A DNA stretch of 64,000 nt. Origin: a virus. The notes under the pieces are model-generated. The model made no database searches. It was not told the DNA's origin and saw nothing but the letters and a program-made list of their open reading frames with translations. This document shows positions 3,385-37,576 of this stretch, in pieces; positions within the stretch are counted from its first letter, which is position 1, and the number at the start of each line of letters is the position of its first letter. Location: IMG/VR virus record IMGVR_UViG_3300042698_000029, positions 89,127 to 153,126 of that record; one strand, written 5' to 3'. A program made the translations under genes and the position numbers.

Positions 3385-3780
3385 TCACCTCTGGTACAGG
3401 ACCTCTCCGAGAGAGTAGGTCTGAACCAGAGCGTCGATGTCTCGTTCCGAGAAAGACGTGACCTTCTCGTCATAGAGGTCCTGGATGAGAGACCAAGCGC
3501 TTCCGTGGTCCAACGGCAGCCGCGCTTCCACAGCCGCCTTCAGTCCATGGGCGAGCGACAGCGTCGTAGCCAGGTAAGCCTTAGGTTCTGGATCATCGTG
3601 CCGGGTCAGCCACAGCACCTGCGAGTGCGGGTCTTCCACCGAACCGACGCGGCTGCGGCGCACGGTCGCCCAGTGGGAGCAGGCGCCGTTCTCCACGAGA
3701 TCCAGCATCTGCTTCCAGTACCGATCGGCGATGCGCGCGGGTTGGAGGGTCAAATCGAAAGAAGGGTCGTGTTCGTGCAC
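3385..3780 (-). CDS. hypothetical protein (131 aa)
   Basis: GGAGG RBS upstream of GTG, coding-like composition, followed by the hairpin at 3296-3332. Confidence 0.6.
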   Translation of the reverse strand: MHEHDPSFDLTLQPARIADRYWKQMLDLVENGACSHWATVRRSRVGSVEDPHSQVLWLTRHDDPEPKAYLATTLSLAHGLKAAVEARLPLDHGSAWSLIQDLYDEKVTSFSERDIDALVQTYSLGEVLYQR

Positions 3781-10564: not shown

Positions 10565-12211
10565 TTAGGCCGGAGTCTGGGTGTCGCCGTACAGGACCGA
10601 CATGCGCTCGCCGCGTTCGAGCTGAGCGGCGTACACGTCCTCATCGATCGTTCCGGCGGTACGGATGTAGAAGCGCTGGACCGGCTTCGTCTGGCCTGAG
10701 CGGTACAGACGGCCCTTGGCCTGCTCGTTCTGCACGCCGTCCTGGTCCTGAGACAGCCACACCTCGATGTGGCTCTTCTCCTGAAGGCCGTCCGTGCCGG
10801 TACCGACGCCCGAGATGACGGCCACCAGCACGCGGTAGTCGGTGCCGAAGCCCTTCTTCACGGACTCCTGGAGCTCCGGCTGGGAGGACAGCGGCCAGCG
10901 TTCGGCGGACTTCCCGATCTTCCGGGCGACCAGGTCGGCGAACTTCGAGCTGTGCGTGAGGACCAACACCGGCTCTTCCGACGGCAGGTCGGACAGCAGC
11001 TCCTTCAGGGCGTAGATCTTCGGCTGGTCGATGTTCTTGTAGTCGACATCCAGCTTCGAGAGGTCCACGTCCTCGCCGGAGTCGATTCGGTCCTGGAGGG
11101 ACTCGACGGTCACCTTTTGACGCCGGGCTGCTTCCGAGAGGGACATGGTGCCCTCCGTCGCGGTGGTCTGACCCAGTGCCAGCTGCCGGAGGCGGATCTG
11201 CTTGACGATGGGGAGCGGGGTGCCCACGGGGACTTCGTCCATCCACGTGAAGCACTGCTCTTCGAAGTCGTCGTACATCTCCCGCTGCTCCAGCGTCATG
11301 CCCACCTCGATCTCGTGGGTGATGACCTCCGGCAGGTTGAGGATGTCCTTGGACAGGCGCCGGATCGCGCAGGGGATTTCCGCCCACATCGCGGCCGGGT
11401 CGACGATCTCCCCGATGACGTCACGAGTCTTGGGCTTCTTCTCGACCGGGTCCCAGCCGTATTCATCGACCTCGATGTTGAAGTGCTTGTGGGCCCACGG
11501 CCAGAACGCCGTATACACCTTGGGCCACAGCCAGTTGAGGATGAACCACAGATCCTCCTCCTGGTTCCCCGCCGGGGTGGCTGAGGCCCCTACGCGGTAC
11601 ACGCTCTTGATCAGCCGCAGGGTCTTGCCGATCAGCGCATCCTTGCGGTTGCGGGCACGGTGCACCTCATCGAAGACCACCAGGTCCCAGACGCCGGTCC
11701 GGCTCCACGGAGGAATGCGTCCGTCCTGCATCCCCTTGCGGATGTTCGCCTGCGTGGGCGCCCACTTACGCTTCTGGCCCGACTCGGTGACCTCGTAGCC
11801 CAGCTTCCCCGCCATGTGCTCGGGGCCGATCAGGAAGATCCCCGGCTCCTTCTTCGTCATCCGGCGCCAGGTCTCCGCGTCATATTTCGTCTGCGCGCTT
11901 CCGTGCGGGCCTACCAGACGCACCTTGTCGTCCGGAAGCGTCGGGAACTGGCGCAGCAGCGTCTTCTTGACCTGGAGATGAGTGACCGGCGGCCCGATCC
12001 ACAGGATCCGCAGACCACTCTTCTGGGGCTGAATCTTGCGGATGGCCTCCACGATCATCACGGTCTTGCCCAGGCCGAGGTCGTCGGCGAGCAAGACGGA
12101 CTTGGATCCCTGGTCGCTCAGTTCGGCGCGCATCCGCTGGATGGCTTCGTCCTGATAGTCGCGCGGAGCCAGCTTCTCCAGGCGTTCCACCTGGATGTTC
12201 TTCTTGGCCAT
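10565..12211 (-). CDS. SNF2/DEAH-family helicase
   Basis: PRDYQ, LLADDLGLGKT, VFDEVH, SATPAGN and EQAKGRLYRSGQ motifs. Confidence 0.92.
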   Translation of the reverse strand: MAKKNIQVERLEKLAPRDYQDEAIQRMRAELSDQGSKSVLLADDLGLGKTVMIVEAIRKIQPQKSGLRILWIGPPVTHLQVKKTLLRQFPTLPDDKVRLVGPHGSAQTKYDAETWRRMTKKEPGIFLIGPEHMAGKLGYEVTESGQKRKWAPTQANIRKGMQDGRIPPWSRTGVWDLVVFDEVHRARNRKDALIGKTLRLIKSVYRVGASATPAGNQEEDLWFILNWLWPKVYTAFWPWAHKHFNIEVDEYGWDPVEKKPKTRDVIGEIVDPAAMWAEIPCAIRRLSKDILNLPEVITHEIEVGMTLEQREMYDDFEEQCFTWMDEVPVGTPLPIVKQIRLRQLALGQTTATEGTMSLSEAARRQKVTVESLQDRIDSGEDVDLSKLDVDYKNIDQPKIYALKELLSDLPSEEPVLVLTHSSKFADLVARKIGKSAERWPLSSQPELQESVKKGFGTDYRVLVAVISGVGTGTDGLQEKSHIEVWLSQDQDGVQNEQAKGRLYRSGQTKPVQRFYIRTAGTIDEDVYAAQLERGERMSVLYGDTQTPA

Positions 12212-33731: not shown

Positions 33732-33836
33732 GACTTCCTCCTCAGAAACAGGTCCGGGCGGACCTCCTGGTTAAAGGATGTCCGCCCGAGGGAAAACCCA
33801 AAAGAGTTTTGAGGAAGTTCAGAGCTTTCTTAGAAG

Positions 33837-33909
33837 TGAATCCGGTCGGACTCGAACCGACGACACGGTGGTTAAGAGCCACCTGCTCTTCCAACTGAGC
33901 TACGGATCC
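33837..33909 (-). tRNA. tRNA-Lys(CUU)
   Basis: Full cloverleaf, anticodon arm GGTGG-CTCTTAA-CCACC, T loop TTCGAGT. Confidence 0.92.
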
Positions 33910-33948
33910 GGGCGGGGACCCCGACATCACCAGTCGAGGCCCCCTTGT

Positions 33949-34022
33949 TGAAGAGAGACGGACTCGAACCGTCATCCTTCGGCACCATAGGGCCGACGCG
34001 CTACCAATTGCGCTATCTCAAA
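33949..34022 (-). ncRNA. degenerate tRNA-like RNA (8-nt anticodon loop, only 4-bp acceptor pairing)
   Basis: Intact D arm GCGC-AATTGGTA-GCGC, stem TCGGC/GCCGA with loop CCTATGGT, T arm GACGG-TTCGAGT-CCGTC. Confidence 0.7.
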
Positions 34023-34347
34023 GGGGTTCCGTTCACGGTCCTGCACAGGCGGACGGGGTTCAGCTTCAAGAGGCATGCGCTCTGCCATTGAGCCACCCGG
34101 GATCGGAGTCCCCGGGGCCGGATTCGAACCGGCATCTCACACCAGCAGACCCATCACGGTAGATCAGGACGCCGACGGTTTGTCTGAGCCTGGAGCGAGA
34201 ACATCAGCTTCAACGGGCTTTGAGATTCCCGTGAGAACTTCAGCAATCATCTTCAGTTTTCGCCCTCAGGGCGACCCGTGCGCTCAGTCACGGGAGTCTT
34301 GGAACGGTCCCAGGAGGGGTAGGGACCGTTGTGGGGATCACCTTACC
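34023..34347 (-). ncRNA. structured ncRNA containing a circularly permuted tRNA-like module (core 34072-34143)
   Basis: Order on the minus strand is GGTGTG-AGAT, T arm GCCGG-TTCGAAT-CCGGC, CCCGGGG-A-CTCCGA-TCCCGGG, TG-GCTC-AATGGCA-GAGC-G-CATGCC. Four upstream hairpins and four TGAAG motifs. Confidence 0.75.
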
Positions 34348-35088
34348 TCATGAACCGAGAAGGTGCCGGAAGATGTTCGCGCCGACGGTGACCTGTTCCA
34401 CTTCCATGGAGTTGGCCTCCTCGCGGGCACGCTTGACGGCGTCCGACATGGCGTCGATACGGGCGACGATCTCCGCTCGGCGTTCACGGGGGAGGGCACC
34501 TGAGAACTTGGTCGTCTCCCAGTAGCCCGCGTTCTTGTCCACGGAGATGACCTCGGTCTGCGCCGGGTGCTTGTCGGTCGCCGGGTACTTCACCAGGACC
34601 GACTGCTCCTTGCGGTTGCGGACGGTCTTTACCGGAGCCGTACGGAAGCCTCCGTTTTCGGCGTCCGGGGTCCACAGCTCCGCCGGGTCGAGGACCGGTG
34701 CCTTGGAGACCACGGTCCGCAGGTCGGTGAGCTGCTTCTCCAGGAAGAGCAGGTAGGGGACCGGCAGCTCGGGCGTGATGGCCTGGCCGTCCAGCACCAC
34801 AGCGGCGCGGGCGCTCATGTTCGCGGTCTCCTTGGTGGCCACCACGTCGAAGAGCTCGGTGAGATGCTTCGCGACGTCGGCCAGCATGAACTCGACGTTC
34901 TTCTGAACCAGCGTGGACTCCGGCGGCAGCTCGTCCCCACCGTCTTCGATCGGCGTGTACTTGCGGGAGAGGCCGCTGAAAAGCGGGGCCTTCTGGAGGC
35001 CGTGGTAGATCTCGGTCACCGCGTGCGAGGTGCGGGCCTGAAGACCCTTCTGTACGGCGACGATCTGACAGAGCTTCGGTGCGGTCAC
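34348..35088 (-). CDS. conserved-looking coiled-coil protein (246 aa) embedded in the tRNA array
   Basis: GAAGGA RBS + GTG at 35088. KLCQIVAV, LPVPYLLFLEKQLTDL, ATDKHPAQ, TKFSGALP and AVKRAREEAN motifs. The upstream ORF extension is a tRNA-like sequence. Confidence 0.85.
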   Translation of the reverse strand: MTAPKLCQIVAVQKGLQARTSHAVTEIYHGLQKAPLFSGLSRKYTPIEDGGDELPPESTLVQKNVEFMLADVAKHLTELFDVVATKETANMSARAAVVLDGQAITPELPVPYLLFLEKQLTDLRTVVSKAPVLDPAELWTPDAENGGFRTAPVKTVRNRKEQSVLVKYPATDKHPAQTEVISVDKNAGYWETTKFSGALPRERRAEIVARIDAMSDAVKRAREEANSMEVEQVTVGANIFRHLLGS

Positions 35089-35119
35089 AGTCAATCCTTC
35101 GGTGAGCTTGAGTCTGAAG

Positions 35120-35238
35120 TGGGAAGAGTGGGATTCGAACCCACGATTTCCGCTGACACGCAGACGTTGCCTAGGTCGACTGCATAGACGGATCAACCGG
35201 ATTTCGTCCGGCCCCATAAGCCACTCGGGCATCTTCCC
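35120..35238 (-). ncRNA. tRNA-like RNA with a 5-nt anticodon loop and ~50-nt variable arm (Ser(CGA)-derived?)
   Basis: GGGAAGA/TCTTCCC acceptor, class II-like D arm, CCGGA-CGAAA-TCCGG, T arm GTGGG-TTCGAAT-CCCAC. 119 nt. Confidence 0.75.
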
Positions 35239-35477
35239 TAGATGGTCCAGGCCCCGAAAAAGTCTTCGGGGTAGATCAGGTCGTACCAGTCCAGCGCAGC
35301 CTGTGCGTCTTGGTGATACTTCTCGGCGCCATCCAGGATGCTATCGCTGGCCTGACAGACGGCGCCTTCCCTCCAGCTGTGGGGACACGGCGTACACCAC
35401 TGTGCTCCACAGGTGAGATGGCCTTTCACTGCTTCCTTTCTCGAAGGGCCCGTTACGTGTCCCCGGTGGATGCCCAT
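35238..35477 (-). CDS. hypothetical protein
   Basis: GAAAGGA RBS before an internal GTG (VKGHLTC), Cys motifs. Confidence 0.4.
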   Translation of the reverse strand: MGIHRGHVTGPSRKEAVKGHLTCGAQWCTPCPHSWREGAVCQASDSILDGAEKYHQDAQAALDWYDLIYPEDFFGAWTI

Positions 35478-35695
35478 ACCGGGTCTGGCGAGAGCGGGGA
35501 CTACACCCTTCTTCCAGTCTTGCCTCGACTTGCAGGCAAAGGATGCATTCCCGTTGACACTACCCCTCTTAGTGATCCAGGAAGGGTCCTCCCTTGCAGC
35601 CCCGAGAGGTGTTGCGGGGTATGCAACTCATGAGGCATTCACTCCGCCGGATCGGCACCGCACCTGCCTGCCTCTCCAGCGTTCCTCGTTACCTG

Positions 35696-35862
35696 TGCCC
35701 TTGGCGGGATTCGAACCCGCGCCTGGATTTCTCCAGAGCTGAGTGTGGAAAACGCGCTTCCCTACAGACCCGGTTCGCGAGCCATTCGGTGCATCCGCAA
35801 CCTTCTCAGCACGCCGCCCCTCCGTTTTTGGGCCGCTCTGTCCCTGCCTGAGCTACAAGGGC
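35696..35862 (-). ncRNA. 167-nt tRNA-like RNA with a ~95-nt structured insertion
   Basis: GCCCTTG/CAAGGGC-A acceptor, D arm GCTC...GAGC, T arm GCGGG-TTCGAAT-CCCGC. Internal GCTGAG/CTCAGC and CTGGA-GAAA-TCCAG stems. Confidence 0.75.
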
Positions 35863-35873
35863 ATGATCCATGT

Positions 35874-36041
35874 TCAGTTGTCCGCGCTGTCCCCCAGGTA
35901 CTTCCGGGTGAGGCGCCTGCTCTTGCCGAGCTTGCGCTGTACCGCCCAGGGGTCCTTGTTCTTTCGGCCGCTTCCGGTGAGCGTGGAGTAGCCGCACATC
36001 AGGCAGCAGCCCCGCCAGCGCTTGTGGGGAGAGTGGGCCAT
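35874..36041 (-). CDS. 55-aa basic Cys-containing protein preceded by a uORF
   Basis: Manual translation MAHSPHKRWRGCCLMCGY...RKLGKSRRLTRKYL, GGAG RBS. Confidence 0.55.
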   Translation of the reverse strand: MAHSPHKRWRGCCLMCGYSTLTGSGRKNKDPWAVQRKLGKSRRLTRKYLGDSADN

Positions 36042-36075
36042 GACTGAGCTCCGTTCGAGTTTTCCCGGCCCCTCT

Positions 36076-36108
36076 TCAGGGCTGGGGTAGCTCGCGGTAC
36101 TCGTTCAT
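36076..36108 (-). promoter_or_regulatory. uORF MNEYRELPQP* (candidate leader peptide)
   Basis: GGAGG RBS, ends Pro-stop. GAGCT in the uORF can pair with AGCTC, which overlaps the downstream RBS. Confidence 0.45.
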
Positions 36109-36260
36109 CGTCCGTCCTCCGGTCTGGGTTGAAAGGTGCGGGGGCCGTATAGCCTCGGCCGCAGAAATATCTTGCATCAGGAGAGCCGCCACGCGGATCA
36201 CTGAAGTTGGCCTCCTCCTACCCGTGCAGAGTCGGCTGTCGTCTCTGCTGGCATCCGCCG

Positions 36261-36332
36261 CTCCCCTTCAAGGACTCGAACCTCAGTTTCCTGATCCAGA
36301 ATCAGGCGTCCTGCCGACTGGACGAAAGGGGA
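36261..36332 (-). tRNA. tRNA-Gln(CUG)
   Basis: Cloverleaf, CCTGA-TTCTGGA-TCAGG. Confidence 0.9.
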
Positions 36333-36356
36333 TTGAGATTATGCAATTGTACTGCG

Positions 36357-36430
36357 TAGGTGGGGTGGGATTCGAACCCACACATTGCATCCGTTATCCG
36401 GCCGTCTCTGCGCGATTGGACTACCCACCT
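36357..36430 (-). ncRNA. tRNA-like RNA with a collapsed anticodon arm (loop GATAA, Ile-derived?)
   Basis: Perfect AGGTGGG/CCCACCT acceptor and GTGGG-TTCGAAT-CCCAC T arm. Anticodon arm reduced to CCG-GATAA-CGG. Confidence 0.7.
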
Positions 36431-36511
36431 TTGCAGGCGCCTGCCGTATGGATCCCGACCAAGAGTACAGCAGGCGCCTTCACGAAACCGAAACCCGAGG
36501 GAATCGGTTGG

Positions 36512-36677
36512 TCATACGTCCTGGGCGATCTCCTCTTCGCAGCCCGCGTGCAGCCACTTCTTGAGGATCCGGTCCTCTACTTCGAAAACGTAGGGGTCCG
36601 CTACCCAGAAAACTTCTTCTTTCGCTACCCCTACCAACCCACAGTGGGAGCACTTTCGATACAGCTTGGTGTTCATG
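36512..36677 (-). CDS. small zinc-binding protein
   Basis: GGAGG RBS, CSHC...HAGC motif. Confidence 0.5.
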
Positions 36678-36723
36678 AGGTTCCCTCCGAGTGAGTGACT
36701 TTTCAATCTCTCGGACGACCTCG

Positions 36724-36797
36724 TGGCTCGGGCTGGGCTTGAACCAGCGACCTTCTCCTTATGAGGGAGCTGCTCTAACCACCTGAGCTACAGAGCC
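36724..36797 (-). tRNA. tRNA-Met/Ile2(CAU)
   Basis: Cloverleaf, CTCC-CTCATAA-GGAG. Confidence 0.88.
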
Positions 36798-36805
36798 TTG
36801 CTTCA

Positions 36806-37090
36806 TCAGACGATCTTGTGGACCATCTTCGGCATCCCGAAGGACATCGCACAGGTGGGGCCGTACTGCGTCAGCAGCTCCACCTGGGGGACGCTGCCGT
36901 TCTCGAAGGGATCGGTCCAGGTCTCCACCGGCATGCCGTTCGGATAGCCGCCGTAGTTCATGACTTCGGCGAGGGTGGCGAAAGTACCGGCCGGGACGGA
37001 GGCGGCCCACAGCGTCACCTTCTCGGTGAGATGCTTCCCCAGGTCGGGGTTGGCGGCGTAGTGAGACTTCTTGTCGACCGTGATGTGCAT
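36806..37090 (-). CDS. hypothetical protein (94 aa)
   Basis: GGGAG RBS, strong GC3 bias. Confidence 0.6.
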   Translation of the reverse strand: MHITVDKKSHYAANPDLGKHLTEKVTLWAASVPAGTFATLAEVMNYGGYPNGMPVETWTDPFENGSVPQVELLTQYGPTCAMSFGMPKMVHKIV

Positions 37091-37121
37091 GACTCCCCCT
37101 AGTTTCTCCCCGCGTGTACCG

Positions 37122-37194
37122 AGCCTCCGACAGGGTTCGAACCTGCGACACCTTCCTTACGAAGGAAGTGCTCTACCAGCTGAGCTACAGAGGC
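37122..37194 (-). tRNA. tRNA-Thr(CGU)
   Basis: Cloverleaf, CTTCC-TTCGTAA-GGAAG. Confidence 0.92.
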
Positions 37195-37280
37195 AATGTC
37201 CGGCTTTCGAGCTCTCAGGAGACCGGACGAACCTGACTAAGGTGTTACCGGGCAGTACCCGGTTACTGATCAGTACCCCG

Positions 37281-37354
37281 TACACTCGGCAGGATTCGAA
37301 CCTGCAACCTCCTGGTCCGTAGCCAGGTGCTCTATCCGATTGAGCTACGAGCGC
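37281..37354 (-). tRNA. tRNA-Arg(ACG)
   Basis: Cloverleaf, CCTGG-CTACGGA-CCAGG. Confidence 0.92.
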
Positions 37355-37502
37355 TTGACGAGGTACCGCGTCTTCCTCGGACTCACCTGCGGGAGCCACG
37401 CGGTACCTCTTGCCTGGTGTGACCCAAGGCGACCGCCGTGTCCCGCACCCCTTGACCCCCGGAGGGCTCGCCTGGTGACGGGAACTTAACGGATAGCAGG
37501 AG

Positions 37503-37576
37503 TAGGGGAGAGAGGAATTGAACCTCCGACCTCGTGATTATCAGTCACGCGCTCTTACCAACTGAGCTACACCCCT
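37503..37576 (-). tRNA. tRNA-Ile(GAU)
   Basis: Cloverleaf, CGTGA-CTGATAA-TCACG. Confidence 0.92.

What the first reader, a model, noticed from the sequence alone, without database searches (positions are those of the whole stretch)
35696..35862. 167-nt 'giant' tRNA-like RNA with a ~95-nt structured insertion
Seen: perfect 7-bp acceptor (GCCCUUG/CAAGGGC-A), D arm and T arm. The anticodon/variable region is replaced by GCCC-10nt-GGGC, a GCUGAG/CUCAGC-closed multi-stem domain and a CUGGA-GAAA-UCCAG tetraloop hairpin. It is too short for a group I intron and lacks the G3:U70 alanine identity of tmRNA. Inference: the tRNA ends may act as an RNase P/CCA-processed stabilising scaffold for a cargo RNA domain.
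Basis: seen in the sequence. Interest (0 to 1): 0.75.

Follow-up and report, generated by a model that had tools for sequence, protein, structure and literature searches.

The report
Ro60-linked tRNA-shaped RNA with giant arm
This 167-base phage gene makes a tRNA-shaped RNA that cannot decode; it belongs to a widespread, apparently undescribed RNA family that repeatedly sits beside genes for the RNA-surveillance protein Ro60 and its Y RNAs.

Summary
On the minus strand (35862 to 35696) lies a 167-nt RNA with a perfect 7-bp acceptor stem, a D arm and a T arm. It has a 5-bp stem with an 8-nt loop (AAAACGGA, no U33) where the anticodon arm should be, and a 95-nt structured region where the variable loop should be.

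It is not a degenerate tRNA. I collected about 100 distinct relatives (148-279 nt) from phages and from bacteria of several phyla. All helices covary, and about 35 core nucleotides of the insert are nearly invariant. Rfam holds no matching family, and I found no paper describing it.

The loop (AAAACG) can pair with CGUUUU in the insert in nearly all members, but covariation for this pseudoknot is thin.

The family is linked to Ro60 (TROVE):
- 14 of 14 neighbouring TROVE genes lie on the same strand.
- 23 of 45 element-bearing phage records encode TROVE.
- YrlA-like Y RNAs lie alongside.

This phage has no TROVE gene. It has a DUF7873 gene with a YrlA-like RNA 1.6 kb away.

Best reading: a non-decoding tRNA mimic, processed like a tRNA, that works with Ro60/Y-RNA-type RNA surveillance or repair. 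Its function is inferred, not shown.

The same scan found this family earlier on other DNA (e1-5596685, e1-5712825, e1-5712842).

The parts
35856..35862 (-). Acceptor stem, 5' strand (GCCCUUG), RNA positions 1-7
   Evidence: Pairs perfectly with 35697-35703. All 7 pairs covary in 36 homologues.
35835..35853 (-). D arm (GCUC, 11-nt loop with GGGA, GAGC), RNA 10-28
   Evidence: The stem is nearly invariant across the family, 29-36 of 36 per pair. It has the same D-arm sequence type as the YrlA consensus.
35816..35833 (-). Hairpin at the anticodon-arm position: 5-bp stem (the fifth pair is A.G here) and 8-nt loop AAAACGGA, RNA 30-47. There is no U33.
   Evidence: 5 of 5 stem pairs covary. The loop consensus (A/U)AAA-ACG-(G/A)A holds in sequences found without using it as an anchor.
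35823..35828 (-). Proposed pseudoknot, 5' strand (AAAACG)
   Evidence: Complementary to 35749-35754. At least 4 bp is possible in 82 of 91 members. Rare compensatory changes exist. This is inferred.
35805..35810 (-). Closing helix Pa of the inserted domain, 5' strand (GCUGAG)
   Evidence: 6 of 6 pairs covary with 35738-35743.
35790..35802 (-). GG of the inner GG/CC helix, then the small hairpin UGC-GGAU-GCA (near-invariant GGUUGC...GCA)
   Evidence: GG/CC covaries (GC 24, AU 6, UA 1). The hairpin stem is invariant and therefore untestable.
35782..35791 (-). CACCGAAUGG: near-invariant GCACCG plus a CGAAUG word shared with the putative Ro60-binding motif of YrlA (GGCGAAUGC)
   Evidence: GCACCG is invariant in 36 of 36. 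Compared by eye with the YrlA consensus. CGAA is replaced by CGGG in long forms, so the motif match is inconclusive.
35767..35783 (-). Variable hairpin Pc. In relatives it is replaced by much larger structures of 50-110 nt.
35749..35766 (-). UGU-AGGGAAGCG-CGUUUU: the most conserved strand of the family. Its last 6 nt are the proposed pseudoknot 3' strand.
   Evidence: AGGGAAGCGCG is invariant in 36 of 36. It served as the search anchor that recovered the family.
35738..35748 (-). CC of GG/CC, ACA, then the Pa 3' strand (CUCAGC)
35723..35736 (-). Small hairpin CUGGA-GAAA-UCCAG. It is lineage-specific.
   Evidence: Present with compensatory changes in phage Kela (CCGGA-GAAA-UCCGG) and as a UUCG hairpin in Quantum. 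Absent from most members.
35696..35720 (-). T arm (GCGGG-UUCGAAU-CCCGC), acceptor 3' strand (CAAGGGC) and discriminator A. CCA is not encoded (the next bases are CAG).
   Evidence: 4 of 5 T-stem pairs covary. Coordinates.

Best explanation
This is a real gene for a non-decoding, tRNA-shaped RNA. It belongs to a widespread family that is absent from Rfam.

Shown:
- The molecule keeps a full acceptor stem, D arm and T arm.
- It carries a conserved hairpin with the loop AAAACGGA where the anticodon arm would be.
- It carries a conserved multi-helix domain in place of the variable loop.
- All of its variable helices covary.
- The family recurs in phages and bacteria.
- The family is strongly associated, in gene order and in genome content, with Ro60 (TROVE) genes and YrlA-type Y RNAs.

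Inferred:
1. It is cut out of the tRNA-array transcript by the tRNA-processing enzymes and receives CCA.
2. The extra domain lies along the anticodon arm, and its CGUUUU strand pairs with the AAAACG of the loop. The anticodon position is then masked, and only the tRNA elbow and acceptor end are displayed.
3. The RNA acts as a partner or adaptor of Ro60/Y-RNA-type RNA surveillance or repair during infection. In phages such as this one, which have no Ro60 gene, it would use the host's Ro60 or the DUF7873 system encoded next door.
For: Family and structure:
- BLAST hits lie in unannotated gaps of the tRNA arrays of Streptomyces phages.
- Pattern scans gave about 100 distinct members, 148-279 nt long.
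- Covariation on 36 sequences: 0 of 500 shuffles reach the observed values. Acceptor 7/7, anticodon-position stem 5/5, Pa 6/6, GG/CC 2/2 and T stem 4/5 pairs change on both sides.
- Model R1 gives 158.5 bits here and 43-72 bits for distant members, against 39 bits or less for ordinary tRNAs.
- Rfam has no match at E up to 10.

tRNA-like ends:
- CCA is encoded in 18 of 98 members.
- There is no promoter or terminator of its own.

Pseudoknot:
- At least 4 bp is possible in 82 of 91 members.
- One member has GCG in the loop matched by CGC in the domain. UAAACG/CGUUUA occurs in two members and UAAAACG/CGUUUUA in another (L052).
- Mean helix length with a member's own partner strand is 4.82, against 4.71 in shuffles; 17 of 2000 shuffles reach it.

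Ro60 link:
- TROVE is the only neighbour conserved across phyla.
- 14 of 14 TROVE genes within the fetched flanks are on the same strand, 7 of them within 500 nt.
- 23 of 45 element-bearing phage records encode TROVE, including all 6 cultured Streptomyces phages. A single tblastn query finds TROVE in 91 of 50,697 phage records.
- 20 of 50 bacterial genomes with the element encode TROVE.
- YrlA-like RNAs lie beside the element in these loci.
- In this window a YrlA-like module lies at 34079-34136.
Against: - No expression, processing or binding datum exists for any member.
- This phage encodes no TROVE protein.
- About half of the element-bearing phage records and 30 of 50 bacterial genomes show none either.
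- In Deinococcus and most Streptomyces the element and the TROVE gene lie far apart or on different contigs.
- Ro60 genes, Y RNAs and this RNA all tend to sit in tRNA arrays, so part of the linkage could be shared location.
- The pseudoknot strands are almost invariant. Tested alone on 36 sequences, the pairing does not beat shuffles (56 of 500), and another register also pairs.
- The CGAA word is not kept in long forms or in Deinococcus.
Confidence: 0.5

Rival explanations
1. A Ro60-independent tRNA decoy or mimic. The locked tRNA body binds or titrates a tRNA-directed enzyme, for example a host anticodon nuclease or another tRNA-targeting defence effector, or it works with another partner such as DUF7873. 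Under this reading the Ro60 co-location only reflects a shared 'RNA conflict island' in tRNA arrays.
For: - The RNA occurs in many genomes without TROVE, including this one.
- Here it lies 600 nt from a DUF7873 gene that has its own tRNA-mimic RNA. DUF7873 is present in 6 of 45 element-bearing records.
- Chromosomal copies in Streptomyces are followed by an ORF with a full-length but sub-threshold match to the HAD domain of 'Swiss Army Knife' RNA repair proteins.
- It is always found among phage tRNA genes.
Against: - The near-invariant insert core across hosts from Actinomycetota to Bacillota and Myxococcota points to a universal partner, not to lineage-specific nucleases.
- A paired anticodon loop would be a poor bait for an anticodon nuclease.
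- Same-strand adjacency to TROVE in 14 of 14 loci is hard to explain by location alone.
Confidence: 0.22
2. A conditional or specialised decoding tRNA derived from tRNA-Arg(ACG). The last five loop bases, ACGGA, equal the 3' part of the tRNA-Arg(ACG) loop. The insert would mask the anticodon with an internal CGU codon until a signal releases it, or the 8-nt loop would read a quadruplet.
For: - The loop ends in ACG-GA or ACG-AA in phage and actinobacterial members. One member has GCG in the loop with CGC in the domain, and one has GCG with CGU.
- The D loop mostly carries GGA, the position of A20 (ArgRS identity is from my own knowledge).
- The element directly follows tRNA-Arg(ACG) in Kela, Quantum and Actinoplanes.
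- CCA is encoded in 18 of 98 members.
Against: - U33 is absent, and the loop is 8 nt or longer.
- In Myxococcota and Deinococcus the loop is 12-16 nt and only its AAAACG start is kept.
- The tRNA body is closest to a tRNA-Arg in only about 12 of 40 loci.
- Acceptor identity varies: G3:U70 in 11 of 98, and discriminator A, G or U.
- The pairing runs 5-7 bp beyond a codon.
Confidence: 0.08
3. A tRNA gene carrying an intron or a mobile or decayed insertion. It would either be spliced to a normal tRNA or be a pseudogene.
For: The overall appearance is a tRNA interrupted by about 95 nt. Rfam tRNA reaches threshold on two relatives when the insert is treated as an insertion (L042 at 37.9 bits; L009 at 38.9 bits).
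Against: - The insert lies in the variable region, not in the anticodon loop.
- Removing it leaves an 8-nt loop without U33.
- 95 nt is too short for a group I intron, and no intron family matches.
- The insert core is the most conserved part of about 100 homologues, and its helices covary. This is the opposite of decay.
Confidence: 0.03
4. The insert is a ligand-binding or catalytic RNA domain (riboswitch-like or ribozyme) mounted on a tRNA body, with no protein partner needed.
For: About 35 nearly invariant nucleotides are arranged around a multi-helix junction with a possible pseudoknot. This pattern is typical of aptamers and small ribozymes.
Against: No Rfam riboswitch or ribozyme family matches at E up to 10. 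There is no conserved downstream gene to regulate. The genomic link is to an RNA-binding protein.
Confidence: 0.1

Closest known systems
YrlA-type bacterial and phage Y RNAs (Rfam RF02553; Chen et al. 2014, PMC4201824; Wang et al. 2018, bioRxiv 10.1101/312249)
   Same: - Both are tRNA mimics with D and T arms of the same sequence type.
- Both are encoded near Ro60/TROVE genes on the same strand, in bacteria and in phages.
- Both are often co-transcribed with tRNAs. In D. radiodurans tRNA-Asp is co-transcribed with the Y RNAs, and tRNA-Asp is a frequent neighbour here.
- Both carry a CGAAUG word in a bulged helix.
- M. smegmatis YrlA is cut by RNase P and receives CCA.
   Different: - YrlA is circularly permuted. 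Its ends lie in the Ro-binding stem and its acceptor is closed by a loop. Here the ends are those of a normal tRNA.
- This family adds a hairpin at the anticodon position with a conserved loop, and a conserved domain of 75-190 nt in the variable region. That domain has no counterpart in YrlA.
- The YrlA model does not match it.
- Both RNAs occur side by side in the same loci, so they are not substitutes for each other.
Yrl1 and Yrl2 of Thermus phage phiLo, bound by the phage Ro60 (PMC12135203)
   Same: They are phage-encoded RNAs next to a phage Ro60 gene. They were identified through the CGAA motif and form complexes with Ro60 and host PNPase.
   Different: They are simple stem-bulge-stem RNAs without a tRNA body. 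The family model finds no member in the phiLo Ro60 locus.
tmRNA
   Same: It is a large RNA with tRNA-like ends that is processed like a tRNA, and phages encode it in their tRNA arrays.
   Different: This RNA has a true D stem and no G3:U70. There is no conserved reading frame or resume codon. Neither ARAGORN nor the Rfam tmRNA models call it.
Class II tRNAs (Leu, Ser, Tyr, Sec) with long variable arms
   Same: The extra structure emerges from the variable region of an otherwise canonical cloverleaf.
   Different: Their arms are a single hairpin of up to about 21 nt, and they keep a 7-nt anticodon loop. Here the arm is a conserved multi-helix domain of 75-190 nt, and the loop is not an anticodon loop.
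T-box specifier-anticodon pairing, and the anticodon-codon mimic pseudoknot of dicistrovirus IGR IRES (from my own knowledge; resemblance only)
   Same: A codon-like strand pairs with an anticodon-loop-like hairpin.
   Different: Here both partners are in one molecule, the pairing is 4-7 bp long, and covariation support for it is weak.

Membership tests
Canonical tRNA (Rfam RF00005) | 7-bp acceptor stem, D arm, and T arm with a GTTCRANYC loop | tested here: met
   with covariation.
Canonical tRNA (Rfam RF00005) | 5-bp anticodon stem with a 7-nt loop, U33 and a purine at 37 | tested here: not met
   The loop is 8 nt, AAAACGGA, with A at the U33 position. In other members it is 7-16 nt and conserved as a motif, so it does not vary as anticodons do.
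Canonical tRNA (Rfam RF00005) | Variable region of 4-21 nt; detected by ARAGORN and by the Rfam model at threshold | tested here: not met
   The variable region is 95 nt. ARAGORN makes no call. Rfam tRNA gives 20.6 bits on the 3' part only, against a cut-off of 29.
YrlA / Y RNA-like (Rfam RF02553) | Match to the family covariance model | tested here: not met
   No YrlA match on the element at E up to 10. The window's YrlA-like match is a different locus, 34079-34136.
YrlA / Y RNA-like (Rfam RF02553) | Permuted order: the 5' and 3' ends form the Ro-binding stem and the acceptor is closed by a loop | tested here: not met
   The ends are at the acceptor stem, as in a tRNA.
YrlA / Y RNA-like (Rfam RF02553) | Putative Ro60-binding motif GNCGAAN(0-1)G | tested here: inconclusive
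   ACCGAAUGG shares CGAAUG with the YrlA consensus GGCGAAUGC but lacks the first G. Long forms read CCGGGAC and Deinococcus forms read CCUAUAG.
YrlA / Y RNA-like (Rfam RF02553) | Encoded within about 4 kb of a Ro60 gene on the same strand | tested here: inconclusive
   Met for the family in 11 loci within about 4 kb; 14 of 14 TROVE genes within the fetched flanks are on the same strand. Not met for this copy, because the phage has no TROVE gene.
YrlA / Y RNA-like (Rfam RF02553) | Physical binding to Ro60/Rsr | not testable with these tools
   Needs RIP, CLIP or EMSA.
tmRNA | G3:U70 alanine identity, a tag reading frame with a resume codon, and no D stem | tested here: not met
   The 3:70 pair is C-G. 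No frame is conserved: the UAG seen here is absent from long forms. A 4-bp D stem is present. No tmRNA call was made.
tRNA with a group I or archaeal-type intron | Intron in the anticodon loop whose removal restores a canonical tRNA; a group I core, or a bulge-helix-bulge motif | tested here: not met
   The insert is in the variable region. Removing it leaves an 8-nt loop without U33. No intron family matches.
   All features are present. The score against R1 is 158.5 bits, but the window copy was in the seed alignment, so the independent support is the 36-sequence alignment.

The most novel reading that the evidence does not exclude
The family is a third, undescribed RNA component of Ro60 particles. 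It is a CCA-ended tRNA body whose anticodon is deliberately masked by its own extra arm. Ro60/Y-RNA machines of phage and host would use it either as an adaptor to recruit tRNA-handling enzymes (RNase P, CCA-adding enzyme, RtcB, PNPase) to damaged RNAs, or as a switchable spare tRNA-Arg that is unmasked when host defences cut cellular tRNAs. Either role would give Ro60 biology a new, experimentally tractable handle in cultured Streptomyces phages.
Probability: 0.15. Interest if true: 0.9.

Novelty: new variant of a known kind. Interest (0 to 1): 0.72.

Why it matters
What bacterial and phage Ro60 does, and why its Y RNAs imitate tRNA, are still open questions (PMC4201824, PMC12135203).

This family adds a conserved, easily recognised RNA to that problem. 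It occurs from 39-kb proviruses to 450-kb phages, and in Actinomycetota, Myxococcota, Deinococcus and Bacillota. It lies in or beside Ro60/Y-RNA loci, yet genome annotation misses it: every copy found in deposited phage records sits in an unannotated gap.

Several cultured Streptomyces phages carry both the RNA and a Ro-like protein (Kela, JustBecause, Quantum, Alone3, GiJojo, Francob, Gilson). The link can therefore be tested directly.

The finding also means that some 'empty' stretches in phage tRNA arrays are genes. tRNA finders should be expected to miss this class.

Tried and rejected
1. Rfam at curated thresholds and at E up to 10 gave no family for the element.
2. tmRNA, group I intron, archaeal bulge-helix-bulge intron, box C/D guide, and known riboswitch or ribozyme consensus sequences were considered by eye and by Rfam. 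None fits.
3. tRNA-Arg origin: the tRNA body was aligned to the tRNAs of the same loci, and an Arg isoacceptor was the best match in only about 12 of 40 loci. This is inconclusive.
4. Pseudoknot tested alone on 36 sequences: 86.7% of cells pair, but shuffles reach this in 56 of 500 cases, and a register slid by 2 columns also pairs. Covariation support is therefore weak. A permutation test on 91 sequences gave a modest signal, with 17 of 2000 shuffles reaching the observed value.
No reads were laid, so there is no transcript evidence.
7. Neighbour clustering around 58 bacterial copies gave TROVE as the only partner conserved across phyla. The other clusters are Streptomyces-specific ORFs without a Pfam match.
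8. Deinococcus: 11 of 111 genomes carry a Deinococcus-type member (15 had a pattern match; I counted 11 by eye), but not next to rsr where positions could be compared. I could not tell whether it equals the 'RNA a' or 'RNA b' of D. radiodurans (PMC4201824).
9. Literature searches found no description of the family. Two Y RNA reviews were not held in the library.
10. Folding energy of the single sequence is not distinguishable from shuffles.

Full report
**What is there.** The finding lies on the minus strand, 35862 down to 35696. It sits inside a co-oriented tRNA array (33836-37576) of a 153-kb virus record with direct terminal repeats, about 64% G+C, whose nearest relatives are actinobacteriophages.

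The 167-nt RNA has these parts:
- a perfect 7-bp acceptor stem and discriminator A
- UA, then a 4-bp D stem with a GG-containing loop
- a hairpin at the anticodon-arm position (GCCCA/GGGGC around AAAACGGA)
- five unpaired bases
- a helix GCUGAG/CUCAGC that encloses about 60 nt
- a small GAAA-capped hairpin
- a canonical T arm

ARAGORN does not call it, and Rfam tRNA reaches 20.6 bits on the 3' part only. Neither the curated Rfam thresholds nor a permissive scan (E up to 10) gives any other family. The minimum free energy of the single sequence is unremarkable (z = -0.82). The case therefore rests on comparison with relatives.

**A large family.**
- BLAST against deposited phages found the same element in unannotated gaps of the tRNA arrays of Streptomyces phages: Kela, JustBecause, Quantum, Kradal, Satis, Alone3, LuckySocke, GiJojo, Francob, Comrade, Gilson and others.
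- Pattern scans anchored on conserved words of the insert found more in IMG/VR contigs. These range from 39-kb proviruses to 450-kb phages, both G+C-rich and A+T-rich.
- A scan of one genome per prokaryotic species found about 58 further copies. They occur in Streptomyces, Actinoplanes, Kitasatospora, Frankia, Streptosporangium, many Myxococcota, Deinococcus, Bacillota, a Fibrobacteria genome and a cyanobacterium.
- In all there are about 100 distinct sequences of 148-279 nt.
- Size differences come from replacement of one hairpin (Pc) and from insertions after the anticodon-position hairpin.
- GGUUGC-loop-GCACCG and AGGGAAGCGCGUU are almost invariant.

**Structure.** On 36 diverse members, a structure derived from the window sequence pairs in 90.9% of cells, against 77.7% for shuffled partners and 38-48% for slid partners. 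29 of 45 pairs have changes on both sides, and no shuffle in 500 reaches any of the five measures.

| Helix | Pairs with changes on both sides |
|---|---|
| Acceptor stem | 7 of 7 |
| Anticodon-position stem | 5 of 5 |
| Closing helix Pa | 6 of 6 |
| Inner GG/CC helix | 2 of 2 |
| T stem | 4 of 5 |

The D stem, the small UGC/GCA hairpin and a CC/GG pair are invariant, so they cannot be tested. The GG/CC covariation shows that the UCC following CGUUUU pairs back to the GG before UUGC. That leaves CGUUUU single-stranded.

A covariance model built from 11 short forms scores the window copy at 158.5 bits, and this is the only copy in its genome. It scores distant members at 43-72 bits and ordinary tRNAs at 39 bits or less.

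**The loop and a possible pseudoknot.** When the family is collected without using the loop as an anchor, the loop still reads (A/U)AAA-ACG-(G/A)A in phage and actinobacterial members. In Myxococcota and Deinococcus it starts with AAAACG and then lengthens to 12-16 nt. It is a family motif, not a set of anticodons.

AAAACG is complementary to the CGUUUU that follows AGGGAAGCG. A helix of at least 4 bp is possible in 82 of 91 members and one of 6-8 bp in 27. A few changes are compensatory:
- GCG in the loop with CGC in the domain, in one member
- UAAACG with CGUUUA in two members
- UAAAACG with CGUUUUA in another member (L052)

Pairing a member's own loop with its own domain strand gives slightly longer helices than permuted pairings (4.82 against 4.71, with 17 of 2000 permutations as high). 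Tested alone on the 36-sequence alignment, the pairing does not beat shuffles (56 of 500), and a second register also pairs. I therefore treat the 'locked anticodon loop' as likely but unproven.

The resemblance of ACGGA to the tRNA-Arg(ACG) loop, and the frequent position next to tRNA-Arg(ACG) or tRNA-Asp, are noted. A test of body similarity to Arg tRNAs was inconclusive.

**tRNA-like ends.** There is no promoter-like or terminator-like site around the gene. Among 98 members, 18 encode CCA directly after the discriminator, far above the 1 in 64 expected by chance. Acceptor identity is not uniform: the discriminator is A in 74, G in 17 and U in 7, and G3:U70 occurs in 11. This fits maturation by the tRNA-processing enzymes. 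It argues against one shared aminoacylation identity.

**Context: Ro60 and Y RNAs.** I clustered the ORFs around the bacterial copies. The only neighbour conserved across phyla was a protein of about 500-550 aa, in a Bacillota MAG, Acetivibrio, a Fibrobacteria MAG and a deltaproteobacterium. Pfam identifies it as TROVE plus the Ro60 vWA domain.
- tblastn with these proteins found TROVE genes in the flanks of 14 element loci, eight of them phage contigs. In all 14 the gene is on the element's strand, and in seven it is within 500 nt.
- Whole-record searches found TROVE in 23 of 45 phage records that carry the element, including all six cultured Streptomyces phages, where it is annotated as 'Ro-like RNA binding protein'.
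- TROVE is also present in 20 of 50 bacterial genomes with the element.
- For scale, one TROVE query finds relatives in 91 of 50,697 deposited phage records. Chen et al. put Ro60 in about 5% of bacterial genomes (PMC4201824).
- In the TROVE loci, sub-threshold but full-length YrlA matches lie beside the element. In one jumbo-phage contig (L047) the order is YrlA-like RNA, a small GGCGAAUGC hairpin RNA, the element, then TROVE.
- TROVE loci of other phages (Gordonia VanLee, Xanthomonas 10KY502B, Rhizobium TM39, Streptomyces BRock, Thermus phiLo) have YrlA-like RNAs or the published Yrl RNAs, but not this family.

The element is therefore an additional, optional component and not a replacement for YrlA.

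Its CACCGAAUGG shares CGAAUG with the presumed Ro-binding word of YrlA. That word is not kept in long forms or in Deinococcus.

**This window.** The phage has no TROVE gene. About 600 nt downstream of the element lies a 119-nt second aberrant tRNA-like gene. It is followed by a DUF7873 gene (E = 6e-92) and a structured RNA of about 300 nt that contains the window's YrlA-like module. DUF7873 occurs in 6 of the 45 element-bearing records. The element here is thus part of an island of tRNA-mimic RNAs. Its partner, if it needs one, would be the host's Ro60 or something else.

**Reading.**
- I am confident (about 0.95) that this is a functional, non-decoding, tRNA-shaped RNA of an undescribed family.
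- I put about even odds on its working with Ro60/Y-RNA-type surveillance or repair.
- The main rival is a Ro60-independent tRNA mimic or decoy.
- A masked tRNA-Arg, a ligand-binding or catalytic domain, and an intron or pseudogene are progressively less likely.

**Prior notes.** After reaching these conclusions I looked up the scan's earlier notes. The same family had been reported from other genomes as 'tRNA-shaped RNA linked to phage Ro60' and as 'anticodon-locked tRNA-shaped RNA family'. They agree with what I tested here. Literature searches found no published description.

Noticed in passing
window 34060-34345 (minus strand) and 34348-35088 (minus strand): A DUF7873 gene (Pfam E = 6e-92) is followed by about 300 nt without an ORF. 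This stretch contains a circularly permuted tRNA module that matches Rfam YrlA below threshold (30.5 bits, 34079-34136). It is a second tRNA-mimic RNA system in the same array, in a phage without Ro60.
   Followed up: partly
window 35120-35238 (minus strand): A 119-nt tRNA-like gene (Rfam tRNA 43.1 bits) has a class II type D arm. At the anticodon-arm position it has the hairpin CCGGA-CGAAA-UCCGG, a 5-nt loop that contains CGAA. Its variable region is about 50 nt. ARAGORN does not call it.
   Followed up: partly
window 33949-34022 and 36357-36430 (minus strand): Two more aberrant tRNA-like genes. One has a 6-nt anticodon loop, and ARAGORN reports it as 'tRNA-???' with anticodon 'at'. The other has no D arm (Rfam tRNA 36.3 bits).
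   Followed up: no
window 35239-35695 (minus strand): About 455 nt between the element and the 119-nt tRNA-like gene has no convincing ORF (the longest is 79 aa). It was not examined for RNA structure.
   Followed up: no
L047:1-780 (IMG/VR contig of 424 kb): Three RNA genes lie in tandem upstream of a TROVE gene: a YrlA-like RNA (50.4 bits), a 68-nt hairpin RNA starting with GGCGAAUGC (a YrlB-like form), and a member of the family studied here.
   Followed up: partly
L127:169-355 and 3474-3686 (Streptomyces sp. A012304); also L079 and L101: Two chromosomal copies of the family lie 3.3 kb apart. Upstream sequence is conserved between Streptomyces species. The second copy in L127, and the copies in L079 and L101, are each followed by an ORF with a full-length but sub-threshold match to the HAD domain of 'Swiss Army Knife' RNA repair proteins (PF18143, 23 bits against a cut-off of 27.5).
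   Followed up: partly
L019:3480-3556 and L032:1062-1134: The genes directly upstream of the family member in these two phage contigs are unusual tRNAs. One has a 4-base anticodon (cuaa) and the other is an amber-suppressor type tRNA(CUA).
   Followed up: no
L180:6995-7158 and 11019-11099 (Streptomyces phage BRock): A sub-threshold manA RNA match (49.7 bits) overlaps an annotated collagen-like CDS. An 80-nt match to tmRNA (64.5 bits) lies in the tRNA array.
   Followed up: no
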